The notes under the pieces: generated by a model
What the model was told of the DNA's origin: nothing
The model's input: the letters and a program-made list of their open reading frames with translations, nothing else
Database searches by the model: none
Shown: piece by piece, positions 12,112 through 23,955 of the stretch
Numbering within the stretch: position 1 is the stretch's first letter
Layout: each line of letters opens with the position of its first letter
Made by a program: the position numbers and the translations under genes
Origin: Paraspadella gotoi
Taxonomy: Eukaryota > Animalia > Chaetognatha
NCBI GenBank assembly: GCA_051294375.1
Contig: CM119264.1
Span: forward strand, 15,030,682 to 15,094,681
Length of the DNA stretch: 64,000 nt
Reading direction: 5' to 3'

Positions 12112-15100
12112 GAGCGACCATGGCGCCTCCGTCTCCCTCGTGGCGACTCGGCAACCGGACGCTGACGTCAACCAACGTCACGACGCGAGGGGGCGTAACT
12201 CAAAGCGTCGTCATGGTAACGCCTTCGTACGCCGATCACGACAAGAGACTTTCGTGCCACGCCCAACACCCGTGGGCACAGGAGAGGTGAGCGGGGCGGA
12301 GGTTAATGGGAAGAGATGAAAAAGGAAGGAAGAGGAAAGATGAAGATCACTGTTGTTGAGAGTCAGTAGGGACGGACACGCAGCGTTGGATGGGGAAGTA
12401 GAAGAAAATAAGTGGAGAAAGAAAGGGAGAAAATTCAGGTGGCGGCTGTGAGAAAAGCAGAATAAAATGTCGGCATAGGCTGTTTAAAAAACGAACGTAA
12501 AATCTCCCAATTATAGATTAGGAGTGATATATATATATAAATTTTTAAAACCATCGATCAGAATTCAGAAAGATTCAGAAATCGGATTCAGAAAGATTCA
12601 GACATCAGATTCAGAAAGGAGATCTTCATCTTTCTATAGTCTACGGATATAACTTCGCAAAGGAAGCCGGTCATATGTTGAAATTGGGTCGTTTTGAATT
12701 TGGGCCAAAAAGGACATGAAAGCCGGTAGATAGTTCTCCGACTTTACTTTTAAAACCAATTTTTATTCCGTTTTTATTCCATCCGGTTTGGCGACTCACT
12801 TTTCCTTTCATTTCTTTTTCGTCGTCGAGGTTGCATTGATAATATTTATTCTTGTTATTCGTCATAACAAAAAATATGTTATTGTATCCCTTTTTTTTTA
12901 GATAAAAAAAGCAAAACAAAAAGAGTTAAATTATGCATTTATTTGCAAGGGACGTTCTCAAGTTCTTGATTTTATTTCTTTTTTAATGATTTGTTTTATC
13001 GAAAAAAGAAAGAAAAAAAGAAAGAAAGAAAACTGAAAGAAAGAAAGAAAGAGAGAGAGAAAGAAAGAAAAAAATGAAAGAAAGAAAGAAAGAAAGAAAG
13101 AAAGAAAGAAAGAAAGAAAGAAAGAAAGAAAGAAAGAAAGAAAGAAAGAAAGAAAGAAAGAAAGAAAGGAAAAGAAAGAATGAGATAGCCAGAGGGACAT
13201 TGAATTAATGGTTTTCTTAGCCCAACTACTAATTCCATTCTTCTTTTTTTTTTCCCCCGATATCGTTAGAACCTTTTATGATGTTTTATCTGTTATCGTT
13301 TTCGTCGCCATTTTGATGGGAAGAAGACGTGGGTCCCGTTTCCTCTTCAGTCTCTTTCCTCGTCAGACAAATTGTTGATTTAAAAGATTTTAAATATATT
13401 CCCATTTTTTAAATTCGACTTTTCAATTATGACCGAGAATTTTCTCGAAGCAAATTAGCTTTGCTCGGATTTTTTTTCTTCTCATAAGTGAATGAAATCC
13501 TATCCGAATTCCAATATTGAATTTTAAAAAAATGGTTAAAGTCACGAACGGGATCTGCGCGATAAAATAAAAGGAATATCTAGAAGAAAAAAAAAAGTCA
13601 AATAGACTTTTTTTTTTTTTGTAAAGCGGGTTTTCTTTTCCTCGCCATTATTCTTGGTTCGCCGAAATCAATCAGTCATGAACCTTCTTTTTCTTTATCG
13701 TTTTTCGCGATACATCATTTCCTCGGGTTCCTTTCACCGCCACGCGTTCCTCGCACAAGACGGCGAACCATTTTCCTCGCTTCGCTTACCTTTCGAGAAT
13801 CCCACTTCTTTTTTTCTTTCCTTTTCTTTTTCTCATCATTTACCTTTCAACGACTCTTTCTTTTTCCTTTTTTTTTAATATCAATTCCCTTACAACGTTT
13901 TCTCAATCGGTTTTTTTTTCTCTCTCTTTCACCATTTAAGTTTCAAGTATTCGGCTCAATATTCTCTTATTTCTCTCTTCTTTTTTTGCTCTGTATTGTT
14001 GATTACCTGTCCTTATCTTATCCAATATCCCTTGATGTCTTTCTACCATATAGTGATTATTCTACGTAGTTATCAATCTTCAGTTCTTCACGTCATTGAC
14101 CTTTTTTGATCTAGTTCTTTTTTTTTGTATTTAATCAGCTTGTGACACAAATTAAGTAAAAAGTAAGACACAAGCGAAACACATCATCGGAATTCTTTTC
14201 TCGTTACTGAATTTTCATTTCACCTCAAGTTTTTCTCATCCTTTACCAGGTAGTCATCTGGTTCTCTTTTTTCTTCTTTTCTTTTTTTTATTTTTCCATT
14301 TTTTTAATTTCTTTTTAATTGTTATGGCTTAATCATCCTTCGCTGTCTTAAAATGAATATCATTCCCCCGTTTTAAATATTTTGTATAATTTGGTGACAA
14401 CAACAACAACGACAACAATAACAACCTTAACGACTCTTGAACTTACCTAAATCAAAAAGATAACCGACCACTTGATTCGTTCATCTTCTGTGCAATTCAT
14501 CGTTAAATACGTATCTATTATTATTTATTAACATTATAAATCAACGTAGGTCCCTCGCTCTAGATTCAATTCTCCTACGAAGTCCATAATATTATATTAA
14601 TTTTCTTAGTCGACTCCATCCCTATTTTTTTCCTTTCTCTATCCCTAAACCATAATTCCAAGGCGTCGATGTCTTCACGCTAATCCCTCCTCCCCCCCCC
14701 CTCCTTCTGCCAAAATTCCCGCCTCCCATTTTCCGCCCCATTAGGCACGATTATCTGGCGCCCTCTTGCGGCTACAACCACCTGAACGTCGTATTTAAGC
14801 CAAAAATCATTTGCGCGGATCCGCAGTTCGGGGAAGAATCTTCTATGGTGTTTCGAGTGTCCTGTCATCTCTTCTCCAACCCCATCGTGCCTGTCTACAA
14901 CTTGGAGGTGAGTCCCGTTGGTGTTGGTGGTCGTCGTCGTCGTCGTCGTCGTNNNNNNNNNNGTCGTTTCTTCCGCGGCCGGCGACGTTGATGTTGTTTT
15001 TCTATAGTCGTCTTTGTTATCGTTGTGACGATAGGAATAATGGGTAGAGATCGAGTACGCCCTCGTTGCTAATGAAATCAACTTAANNNNNNNNNNNNNN

Positions 15101-21200: not shown

Positions 21201-23955
21201 CAAACCCGATCGTAATTAAAATAAATTGGGAGCAAATTAAACGTCATGTTTAATGAAGCGATTTAATCAGAAATCTGCGATATCGGCGAATTTCGTCCAT
21301 CAGCGTTTTGCTCTTTTGTTTCTTGTTTCTCTTCCCTTTCGATTCCTTTCCAGTCCCCAGGCCCAATGTTTGGGTTTCGAAGATGAAGTGGTTTCAGTTT
21401 GTAAACCCGAGTCCACTTGGGCAACGAAGGTCAAAGAGAGAGAGAGAGAGAGGAGAGAAGAGAGAGAGGAGAGAGAGAGAGAGAGAGAGAGAGAGAGAGA
21501 GAGAGAAAGAAGAGAGAGAGAGAGAGAGAGAGAGATAGGGGACTCGACCTGACCTCTTCGCTCGCTTGAATAGAAATTGAGGGATGATTGACACGGACGG
21601 AGAAAAGAAAAGGCAAATGCCACTGGATTGGTGGAGGACGCTGCAAATGAGAGAGAGAGAGAGAGAGAGAGAGAGAGAGAGAGAGAGAGGAGAGAGAGAG
21701 AGAGAGAGAGAGAGAGAGAGAGACTTAGGGCGTAGCTCTGAATCTCAGAGAAAGTGATTTAGGACCAAGAGACGGAAAGCGATTGATGGTGATTGACAGA
21801 CAAACGGAGAGACGGAGAGGGAATGTCAAACTCGAGGGATTTAATCGACCCCCCCCCCCAACAAAGAGCGTAGATTATGCGATCTTTTTGTGCGACCTTC
21901 TCACCCTTCTGTCTCATTCGTTCTTCAGAGTTCCCGGCGACATGGACTCCGTTAGCGCGTTGCGAACCCAGTTGGAGAGATGGCACTGTCGCTCCCCGTC
22001 CACGCCTCCTTGTAACCAAATTGTGGGCGTACAGTTCCCTAGCAACCATGCTCACCTCCCGAACAACACCGACCCTCACGTCGCCGCCTCTCTACTCAAA
22101 CTTTGGTACAGAGAACTGGAGGAGCCGCTGATCCCGCCGACTCACTACCGCCCGTGTCTGCAGCACTACAACAATCCCGACAAACTCTTGGGGGTGAGTA
22201 ATGAAAACTTACTTTTGAACCGAAGATTTACGGGAAAGATAATTACTTATCGGACAGAAGTCATTCGGGTTCACCTAATTAGATTTAAAAAAGTCCTGTT
22301 TTGATAAATAAACGAAAATCATAAAATTAATAAGAGCGTGAAAAACATTGTTTACCAGTCTCGCTCGGATACCATAAATATTATCTTAGCCATAAATAAT
22401 CTCGGAACCCCCAAAAAAAATATATTTGGAAGAGCTTCGTGAATAAACAAAGTCGCCACTATGACCTTTCTCGCCCTTCCGCTGCAGGTTATCTGGACGT
22501 TGCCCGAAATCAATAAGATGGTTCTGGCGTATTTGATAAGATTCTTGCAAGTAAGCGAAACTGGGCGAGTAACGAAAACAAAACAAAAACAAAACACAAA
22601 CAAAAAAAGACGAGAAAGTGGCTCGAGGGTTGATATCAGCAAAACAGAGTAATGGGAAAACCTAAGCGTAACCTAATACCCGACTTCAATTTTTTTTTTC
22701 TTTCCCTGTCGCTCTCGATATATATTCTCACTCTCTTCACCGCCCCCTCGAAACGTTTCATCCTTTCCCCCCTCTCCTCCCCTCATCCGCTTCATCCCCT
22801 CCCCACGGACCCTCCACCAAAAAAAAAAGGTGTTCGCTGCCCCAGAAAACGCAGAAGAGACCAAAATGGATATCAACAACCTCTCCATGGTGATGGCACC
22901 GAACGTGTTGAGAAGCGATGGAGACAGACGAGTGAGAGAGAGAGAGAGAGAGAGAGGAGAGAAGAGAGAGAGAAGAGAGAGAGAAAGAGAGAGAGAAGAG
23001 AGAGAGAGAGAAGAGAGAGAGAGATTGAGTGATGAGAGTTGAGGTGAGAAAACTTTCATCACTAGGCGCATAAACACAAACGCCCTCGCGTGGAATGAAT
23101 CGAGTCACGCGGCATAGAAAAAAACCTACCACGCGTGCGTTTCGCACGCATAAATCACATGGCTCTTACCCATTGCGCGCGAATGCCAATAGCCTGAAAC
23201 GATACAGTAGCTGAGGTGAGCGTCTCTGCTTGCGCAGACCGAATTGCGCAATGATCCGGCATTGCGTGGACGTTGACCGACGCAATGACGCTCAACTTTG
23301 AATCCCCGTCAGAATCAGCTCGACATTACGTGACTCTCTCGAGATGTGCGCGCGCAGATCACGCGACGATCATGGTTCGCGCGTGAAATGCACGTGCGAG
23401 TCTAAAATAGCGCGGCGAGCTGAGGGAATTTGTCGAGGAAATGGGCGCGCGGGAAAGAAAAAGAAGAAAGAAAAAAACTAAAAATAGATTCAGTCGAGCT
23501 TGAATCTCCACTGCGTTTTTGTCCTTCCCATGAGATGGAGGATTTTAAATGCAAAAAAAGTCGTTCCTTGTTATTATGATGTTAAACTAAAAGCCAAGGA
23601 AAAAATCTTTCAGTCACTTTAAACTGTTCTCGGGATTTTAGTGTATTTATGATGCTAGTCTGGAAATTATCAGGGAAACAAATCGTAACTGTCAAATGTT
23701 AGTAATATTGTCTTCTGGTAGAATATGTAACATCTAAAAGCTGAATTTTAATCTATTTTACGTTCCTGACATCTGCTCAATTTAGAGTGAAAAGCACGAC
23801 AGTTTTTTTTGTATATTTGCAATTTACCTTTGAATCAAATGATTTCTTATTCTCTCCTTCTCAGGTTGATCTTTGAAAACACGCGAAAGGAGATGATTTT
23901 GGTTCGGACTCTCATCGAGAACATGGACACCGGATTCATGGAGGGAGTTAATTAA
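12112..23955 (+). CDS. Multi-exon gene (5'-incomplete): Ig-like ectodomain + TM helix + cytoplasmic ARHGAP39/Vilse-type RhoGAP domain
   Basis: Exons with AG/GT ends: 12112-12286, 14745-14907, 16036-16316, 16715-16849, 17324-17395, 18002-18230, 20221-20362, 20695-20837, 20935-21092, 21929-22193, 22488-22550, 22830-22931, 23865-23955 (TAA). All junction phases match except 22931/23865. AATAAA at 24102. Confidence 0.7.
13003..13179. repeat. (AAAG)n microsatellite
   Basis: Directly visible. A similar tract lies at ~35400-35485. Confidence 0.95.
20935..23955 (+). CDS. ARHGAP39: RhoGAP domain closely resembling the C-terminus of ARHGAP39/Vilse/CrossGAP
   Basis: [131 protein letters not shown] matches the recalled ARHGAP39 GAP domain and tail. 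The Arg finger (GIFR) is intact. The symbol applies to this domain only. Confidence 0.9.

What the first reader, a model, noticed from the sequence alone, without database searches (positions are those of the whole stretch)
12112..23955. Apparent single-pass Ig receptor with a built-in Vilse/ARHGAP39 RhoGAP domain
Seen: the TM exon ends ..REANSQ|GT (phase 0). It links in frame through 20221-20362 ([12 protein letters not shown], phase 0 to 1) and 20695-20837 ([12 protein letters not shown], phase 1 to 0) into the GAP exon at 20935 (phase 0), with no stop. No WW or MyTH4 coding sequence is visible between the TM exon and the GAP. Known: ARHGAP39/Vilse is normally a cytosolic WW-WW-MyTH4-RhoGAP recruited to the Ig receptor Robo. 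Inference: exon shuffling has replaced the adaptor modules with an Ig ectodomain and TM helix, giving a receptor that could couple cell contact directly to Rac/Cdc42 inactivation. I do not recall this architecture being described.
Basis: partly seen in the sequence, partly recalled or inferred. Interest (0 to 1): 0.92.

Follow-up and report, generated by a model that had tools for sequence, protein, structure and literature searches.

The report
Ig receptor with built-in RhoGAP
In this (probably animal) genome, RNA joins a membrane-anchor exon that follows antibody-like exons to a linker ending 97 bases before a Rho-GTPase switch-off domain, so the gene likely encodes one surface receptor that would shut off Rac/Cdc42 directly at cell contacts, a layout for which I found no precedent.

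Summary
Mostly confirmed, one link still inferred. The exons are real: a C2-set Ig exon, two likely degenerate Ig repeats, one strong TM helix, a low-complexity linker and an ARHGAP39-type RhoGAP that keeps its arginine finger. DNA contigs of three samples cover the linker-to-GAP stretch without a break, so there is no misjoin. The decisive junction 20837>20935 lies in 155 nt that no RNA contig covers, so it is inferred. It is supported by a sharp GC drop at 20838, no polyA signal before the GAP exon, no WW/MyTH4 in the window, and an acceptor at the ancient phase-0 MyTH4|GAP intron (31 of 34 canonical sequences). Open points: no signal-peptide exon found, and phases disagree at the last GAP intron. 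None of 39 long homologues scanned carries Ig. Fusion is about 80% likely. It would work like plexin or CLDN18-ARHGAP (a membrane-tethered GAP), with activity untested. Verdict: new domain architecture built from known parts.

The parts
12112..12286 (+). Ig exon, C-terminal part of a CD80-like C2-set domain; starts in phase 1, so upstream exons must exist (not found)
   Evidence: Pfam PF08205 E 3.3e-4, 21.1 bits vs cut-off 21; Atlas leads all Ig-type, 0.87-0.89; 73% identical exon in a relative, P0165
14745..14907 (+). ectodomain exon: end of Ig domain 1, start of Ig-like domain 2 (inferred)
   Evidence: phase 2 to 0, canonical splice sites; C..SNP..W motif; no Pfam hit
16036..16316 (+). ectodomain exon: rest of Ig-like domain 2, start of domain 3 (inferred)
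   Evidence: open frame; domain 2 vs 3 score 56 against 25+-4.5, 0 of 2000 shuffles; its one variant is synonymous
16715..16849 (+). ectodomain exon, Ig-like domain 3
   Evidence: RNA joint 16849>17324
17324..17395 (+). ectodomain exon
   Evidence: RNA joints on both sides
18002..18230 (+). stalk, TM helix (18132-18188) and basic stop-transfer stretch
   Evidence: hydropathy 3.24; RNA joints 17395>18002 and 18230>20221
20221..20452 (+). cytoplasmic linker exon 1 (His/Pro/Gly-rich); RNA donor is 20452, not 20362
   Evidence: X9 record of 356 nt, joint 20452>20695 GT..AG; codon bias in this frame
20695..20837 (+). cytoplasmic linker exon 2 (Ser/Thr/Gly-rich); RNA covers 20695-20731, 3' end inferred
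   Evidence: GC 0.68 then 0.34 after 20837; 20838 is the best donor in 20700-20983
20838..20934 (+). 97-nt phase-0 intron, the inferred fusion junction
   Evidence: GT..AG, pyrimidine tract, no AATAAA/ATTAAA before 21175; acceptor at the conserved MyTH4|GAP intron position; single DNA contigs across it in X1 and X5
20935..21092 (+). RhoGAP exon 1 (ARHGAP39 type), ends at the arginine finger
   Evidence: GAP profile E 1e-14; RNA 20984-21092 spliced to 21929
21929..22193 (+). RhoGAP exon 2 with a lineage-specific insert
   Evidence: PF00620 E 4e-8; 10 of 10 hits named ARHGAP39; clade with P0012/P0013 100/99
22488..22550 (+). RhoGAP exon 3
   Evidence: PF00620 100-119; tblastn
22830..22931 (+). 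RhoGAP exon 4 (conserved Asn); 3' end uncertain beside a (GA)n repeat
   Evidence: PF00620 123-147, E 2e-5; donor phase 0 against phase 2 needed
23865..23955 (+). last exon, ARHGAP39 C-terminal helix and stop
   Evidence: tblastn 52-72% identity

Best explanation
This is likely one gene for a single-pass Ig-superfamily surface protein whose cytoplasmic tail ends in an ARHGAP39/Vilse-type RhoGAP, predicted to switch off Rac/Cdc42 wherever the receptor would be gathered by cell contact. Shown: the Ig exon, the TM helix, RNA splicing from the TM exon through both linker exons, an ARHGAP39-type GAP with its catalytic residues, and physical adjacency of linker and GAP in DNA. Inferred: splicing 20837>20935; N-out/C-in topology; origin by joining an Ig-TM gene to the GAP exons at the ancient phase-0 intron, which dropped WW and MyTH4; Rac/Cdc42 as substrates (from Vilse). 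Because a 139-residue low-complexity linker separates membrane and GAP, control is more likely by localisation and clustering at adhesions than by a plexin-like conformational switch. The ectodomain then replaces the WW-Robo binding step that normally brings Vilse to the membrane. Odds: fused transcript about 0.8; active, contact-localised Rac/Cdc42 GAP about 0.65 if fused.
For: RNA record spanning 15 of 19 TM codons, linker 1 and the start of linker 2. Linker 2 stays GC-rich (0.68) to 20837 then drops to 0.34; 20838 is the best of 10 GT sites in 20700-20983, score 4.1, like the RNA-used donor 16850 at 4.2. In run X6 a natural allele makes the six intron letters of that RNA-used donor identical to those at 20838. 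No polyA hexamer between 20690 and 21174. Acceptor 20935 matches in position and phase an intron found in 31 of 34 distinct canonical sequences (many are near-duplicates from few hosts); 29 of 42 such loci show MyTH4 exons upstream in the contig, and here there is none in 20.9 kb. DNA contigs X1 (20207-21430) and X5 (20137-21148) each span linker and GAP exon 1; X7 does so in two overlapping pieces. Arg finger and Lys match 17 of 17 homologues, Asn 15 of 17; identity 41-64% against a mean of 55% among canonical proteins. Eight N-glycosylation sequons lie before the TM (P 0.002 by shuffling) and 3 after it. 1 of 32 substitutions (synonymous) and 0 of 8 indels in 15800-20005 fall in exons (crude P 0.02, not coverage-weighted). 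Close relatives keep both the Ig exon (73%) and the GAP exon with its insert (61-63%).
Against: The 20838 donor is at the weak end (6% of intronic GTs score as high), and the 3' part of linker 2 shows no frame-specific codon signal. The conserved acceptor is equally what a canonical ARHGAP39 with a distant MyTH4 exon would have. No signal-peptide or first exon was found in 12 kb upstream. Phases disagree at the last GAP intron. Only one Ig domain passes Pfam, barely. Both TM flanks are basic (+4 before, +6 after). No homologue shows the architecture: 0 of 39 long hits have an Ig family and 34 have MyTH4. The relatives' Ig and GAP exons are on separate short contigs. RNA support comes from a single run.
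Confidence: 0.75

Rival explanations
1. Two genes: an Ig-TM adhesion gene that ends after linker exon 2 (stop at 20889 if the 97 nt are read through), lying on the same strand inside a long intron of a canonical ARHGAP39 whose WW/MyTH4 exons are upstream of the window.
For: The GAP exon starts exactly where canonical genes receive the MyTH4 exon; the 20838 donor is weak; no whole genome was available to look for MyTH4 exons.
Against: It needs an intron over 20.9 kb holding a whole same-strand gene, where this gene's introns are 97-2458 nt. There is no polyA signal before the GAP exon. The GC drop and best local donor sit exactly in frame at 20838.
Confidence: 0.08
2. The GAP exons are mainly a GAP-only transcript from an internal start (in-frame ATG at 20800 with the 97 nt retained, or ATG at 20983), and the Ig-TM protein is mostly made without the GAP; any fusion is a minor isoform.
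For: The GAP frame is open from 20575 through the 97 nt, and two in-frame ATGs exist.
Against: An open frame there arises in 11% of shuffles. The 97 nt have intron composition and a conserved acceptor. Codons upstream of ATG 20983 match ARHGAP39, so they are likely translated.
Confidence: 0.12
3. Assembly artefact: unrelated Ig-TM and GAP loci were misjoined between 18.3 and 20.9 kb.
For: Draft assembly with 9 N runs and base-level errors (indels at 18250, 18335 and 18346 shared by X2 and X6); no single DNA contig spans 18.3-20.2 kb.
Against: One RNA record bridges 18230>20221. DNA contigs from three samples in two studies cover 20207-21148 without a break (X1 may be the source sample).
Confidence: 0.02
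4. The fusion is real but the product is defective (truncated by a true frameshift before the last exon) or the gene is decaying.
For: Phase mismatch at 22931>23865; missing N-terminal exons.
Against: Catalytic residues are intact and identity is typical for the family. The Pfam domain is complete to position 147 of 148 before the mismatch. The last exon is conserved. The mismatch abuts a (GA)n repeat. Exonic variation is depleted in the Ig-TM part.
Confidence: 0.03

Closest known systems
ARHGAP39 / Vilse / CrossGAP / Porf-2
   Same: GAP domain subfamily (10 of 10 named hits; nests among ARHGAP39-type proteins), catalytic residues, C-terminal helix, and the intron before the GAP. Vilse WW domains bind Robo CC2 and its GAP acts on Rac1 (PMC6220574, passages seen).
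   Different: No WW or MyTH4; an Ig ectodomain and TM helix lie upstream instead; an insert in GAP exon 2; a last intron absent from 26 of 26 canonical stretches.
Plexins
   Same: Single-pass guidance receptors with a built-in cytoplasmic GAP (PMC3787391, abstract seen; PMC10084454, passages).
   Different: Plexins have a Sema-PSI-IPT ectodomain and a Ras-family GAP acting on Rap, switched on by dimerisation. Here the ectodomain is Ig-type, the GAP is a RhoGAP, and a long low-complexity linker intervenes. No homology is claimed.
CLDN18-ARHGAP26/6 fusions of diffuse gastric cancer
   Same: A membrane adhesion protein anchoring a RhoGAP domain; the review says CLDN18 serves as an anchor (PMC12174687, passages seen).
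   Different: Those are somatic fusions of a claudin with other ARHGAP subfamilies. This one sits in the genome of several individuals, is single-pass, Ig-type and ARHGAP39-derived.
Kirrel/Nephrin/Sidestep-type Ig adhesion proteins
   Same: Type I Ig-superfamily layout with a C2-set domain; the C..SNP..W strand motif resembles theirs (recalled, not from a call).
   Different: Kirrel and Nephrin tails have no folded domain (PMC10084454, passage). No sequence search tied the ectodomain to a named family.
ARHGAP36
   Same: A RhoGAP-family protein whose canonical isoform has an N-terminal signal peptide (PMC11223830, passage).
   Different: Different subfamily; no Ig ectodomain described in the passage seen.

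Membership tests
ARHGAP39/Vilse | ARHGAP39-type RhoGAP domain | tested here: met
ARHGAP39/Vilse | Arginine finger and conserved Lys and Asn | tested here: met
ARHGAP39/Vilse | N-terminal WW pair | tested here: not met
   no hit in 64 kb; outside the window not testable
ARHGAP39/Vilse | MyTH4 directly before the GAP | tested here: not met
   the same profile finds MyTH4 upstream in 29 of 42 canonical loci
ARHGAP39/Vilse | GAP activity on Rac1/Cdc42 | not testable with these tools
   substrate taken from PMC6220574
Type I Ig-superfamily receptor | At least one Ig domain | tested here: met
   PF08205 at cut-off, Atlas leads, conserved in P0165
Type I Ig-superfamily receptor | Further Ig domains (2 and 3) | tested here: inconclusive
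   internal repeat and motif; no Pfam, PDB or Atlas hit; model pLDDT 42
Type I Ig-superfamily receptor | Single TM helix after the ectodomain | tested here: met
   hydropathy 3.24, the only such stretch; in RNA
Type I Ig-superfamily receptor | Signal peptide | tested here: inconclusive
   no upstream exon found; four N gaps lie upstream and the gene may begin before the window
Plexin | Sema-PSI-IPT ectodomain and Ras/Rap GAP | tested here: not met
   Pfam gives C2-set and RhoGAP only
Ig-TM-RhoGAP single polypeptide (the claim) | Spliced junction 20837>20935 in transcripts | tested here: inconclusive
   no RNA contig covers 20732-20983; indirect support

The most novel reading that the evidence does not exclude
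A genome-encoded class of Ig-superfamily receptors with an intrinsic RhoGAP, the Rho-family counterpart of plexins. It arose when an adhesion gene captured the Vilse GAP at an ancient intron, collapsing the receptor-plus-adaptor Robo/Vilse logic into one chain, and it is kept across a clade (relatives carry both signature exons).
Probability: 0.55. Interest if true: 0.82.

Novelty: new variant of a known kind. Interest (0 to 1): 0.68.

Why it matters
Receptors that carry their own GTPase switch-off domain are rare; plexins (Rap GAP) are the known animal case. An Ig receptor with an intrinsic RhoGAP would couple cell contact to Rac/Cdc42 shut-off with no adaptor. It offers a natural test of whether membrane tethering alone can replace the WW and MyTH4 modules of Vilse, the same question raised by CLDN18-ARHGAP cancer fusions. 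It is also a clean case of domain shuffling at a conserved intron. Limits: it appears lineage-restricted, and one RT-PCR could still undo it.

Tried and rejected
Lack of cover is taken as no evidence either way. Contig depths (2.2-3.6 on the Ig/TM side, 7.8 on the GAP side) and the start of the GAP contig at 20984 were not used, since contigs cannot show level or start. No listed holder was on record as RNA; X9 is a guessed RNA run that shows GT..AG joints absent from the DNA runs. No genome is held, so a separate canonical ARHGAP39 could not be sought. Homologue search with exon 16036-16314 gave 0 hits among 53 candidates; the Atlas gave no usable hit; PDB sequence searches gave only E>0.2 matches; its single-sequence model had pLDDT 42, so no fold search was run. 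The metagenome scan returned 80 loci at 36-45% identity, none a close relative. Upstream exon searches gave no credible first exon. The idea that linker 2 is a vestige of the MyTH4 tail was dropped: no profile hit at E<10. P0011, top, is a PH-RhoGAP with a repeated segment. Earlier findings of the scan: five look-ups, nothing on this locus or architecture. No complex prediction was run.
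Full report
The window is a draft eukaryotic sequence with 9 N runs and many microsatellites. No whole genome is held. That it is an animal is my inference from the gene content.

Anatomy. Thirteen + strand exons lie between 12112 and 23955. The first exon matches a C2-set Ig domain just at the Pfam cut-off, the Atlas leads are all Ig-type but under 0.9, and a relative has the same exon at 73% identity. Two further stretches of about 100 residues share a C..SNP..W motif and resemble each other (score 56, 0 of 2000 shuffles). 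I read them as degenerate Ig-like domains lacking the second canonical cysteine (pattern recalled); no library recognises them. One strong TM helix lies at 18132-18188. Eight sequons lie before it and three after, which favours N-out, C-in, although both flanks are basic. A 139-residue low-complexity linker follows, then the RhoGAP. The first exon begins mid-domain in phase 1, and two searches found no upstream exon or signal peptide.

The GAP. All 10 hits to exon 21930-22193 are named ARHGAP39. The arginine finger and the conserved Lys and Asn are present, and identity to 17 canonical proteins is 41-64%, against a mean of 55% among them. In a rough tree of the exon-2 region (39 rows, one dropped for lack of an anchor; bootstrap not fully settled) it forms a 100/99 clade with two unnamed single-exon proteins, P0012 and P0013, on a long branch among ARHGAP39-type sequences. 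No WW or MyTH4 sequence is found in 64 kb, while the same profile finds MyTH4 upstream of the GAP in 29 of 42 canonical loci.

Transcript evidence. Of nine runs listed, one (X9) is a guessed RNA run. It shows GT..AG joints that the DNA runs lack. Joints seen: 16849>17324 and 17395>18002, 20452>20695, and by loose ends 18230>20221 and 21092>21929. The 356-nt record covers 15 of the 19 TM codons, all of linker 1 and 37 nt of linker 2. The junction that completes the fusion, 20837>20935, lies in 155 nt with no contig, so it is neither shown nor contradicted.

Indirect evidence on that junction. GC falls from 0.68 to 0.34 at 20838, which is the best donor of ten in the region and scores like an RNA-used donor. 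In run X6 that RNA-used donor carries an allele with the same six intron letters. There is no polyA hexamer until 21175, beyond GAP exon 1. The acceptor at 20935 lies eight codons before the conserved FG in phase 0, where 31 of 34 distinct canonical sequences have their MyTH4|GAP intron (these include near-duplicates, and 3 are continuous there). DNA contigs of X1 and X5 each span both linkers and GAP exon 1, and X7 does so in two overlapping pieces. Against: the donor is weak, the 3' part of linker 2 has no frame-specific codon signal, and the conserved acceptor fits a canonical gene equally well. An independent GAP gene would need a same-strand nested arrangement in an intron over 20.9 kb, or an internal start. 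The open frame through the 97 nt that would allow the latter occurs in 11% of shuffles. I put the fused transcript at about 0.8.

A blemish. The donor at 22932 is phase 0 and the last exon needs phase 2. Canonical proteins have eight residues across this place, and the window is two bases short of that, beside a (GA)n repeat. The assembly has small errors elsewhere (indels shared by X2 and X6), so an assembly slip is likely but unshown. The Pfam domain is complete before this point.

Selection. In 15800-20005, 1 of 32 substitutions and 0 of 8 indels fall in exons, and the one is synonymous (crude P 0.02, not weighted for cover, and one cluster of 12 intronic sites comes from a single run). Relatives keep both the Ig exon and the GAP insert, but on unlinked contigs of 540-900 nt.

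Mechanism. Vilse binds the Robo CC2 motif through its WW domains and its GAP acts on Rac1 (PMC6220574, passages). Here the recruiting modules are gone and the GAP would hang from its own Ig receptor. I infer constitutive membrane tethering with local action where the ectodomain is clustered by adhesion, damping Rac/Cdc42 protrusion (contact inhibition or repulsion). The long flexible linker argues against plexin-style allostery. None of this is tested.

Comparison. It is not a member of ARHGAP39 as defined, since WW and MyTH4 are absent, but it carries that family's GAP. It works like plexins, receptors with a built-in Rap GAP (PMC3787391, abstract; PMC10084454, passages), and like somatic CLDN18-ARHGAP fusions, where a membrane protein anchors a RhoGAP (PMC12174687, passages). 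ARHGAP36 has a signal-peptide isoform (PMC11223830, passage). PMC2386819 (passages) concerns plant formins with RhoGAP-like domains and is not a precedent. For architecture I scanned the 39 hits of 292 aa or more among the 150 listed of 279: 34 have MyTH4 and none has an Ig family; one (P0011) has a spurious Fn3-type match on a repeated segment. Of 50 proteins of 250 aa or more, one reaches hydropathy 1.95 and none approaches 3.24. Literature searches for the architecture (listings seen) returned no description of an Ig-TM-RhoGAP protein. The library lacks most subscription papers, no supplements were read, and no InterPro architecture query was possible, so absence from print is not proven.

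Verdict. It is a new domain architecture from known parts: new variant of a known kind, interest 0.68.

Noticed in passing
window 24355-26304 (-): 650-codon open frame on the minus strand, Ser/Thr-rich with a hydrophobic start and a weak C-terminal F5/8 type C (discoidin) match (E 3e-4, below cut-off); it ends about 400 nt from the GAP stop codon, tail to tail.
   Followed up: partly
window 38701-40524 (+): Short-chain dehydrogenase exons (adh_short E 2e-12); resembles HSD17B14 (recalled).
   Followed up: partly
window 58092-58922 (+): Trypsin-family serine protease exons (E 8e-7 and 3e-8).
   Followed up: partly
window 22921-22940 and 23865: The last GAP intron is absent from 26 of 26 canonical stretches, and the exon is two bases short of the canonical length beside a (GA)n repeat: an assembly slip or a non-canonical donor.
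   Followed up: partly
window 20363: A strong-looking in-frame donor (score 8.7) 90 nt before the RNA-used one; a possible alternative 5' splice site giving a linker 30 aa shorter.
   Followed up: partly
window 17973-18142: An X9 record starts 29 nt inside the intron before the TM exon: unspliced RNA, DNA, or another acceptor.
   Followed up: no
window 18099-18119: A basic cluster just outside the TM helix; a possible protease shedding site (speculative).
   Followed up: no
window 11000-11183: 52-nt tandem repeat, 3.5 copies, 88% matches, about 900 nt upstream of the first Ig exon.
   Followed up: no
window about 4700-5300 and 7400-8530: Similar-looking stretches recur, seen by eye; not reported by the ungapped repeat search. 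Possibly a degenerate dispersed repeat.
   Followed up: no
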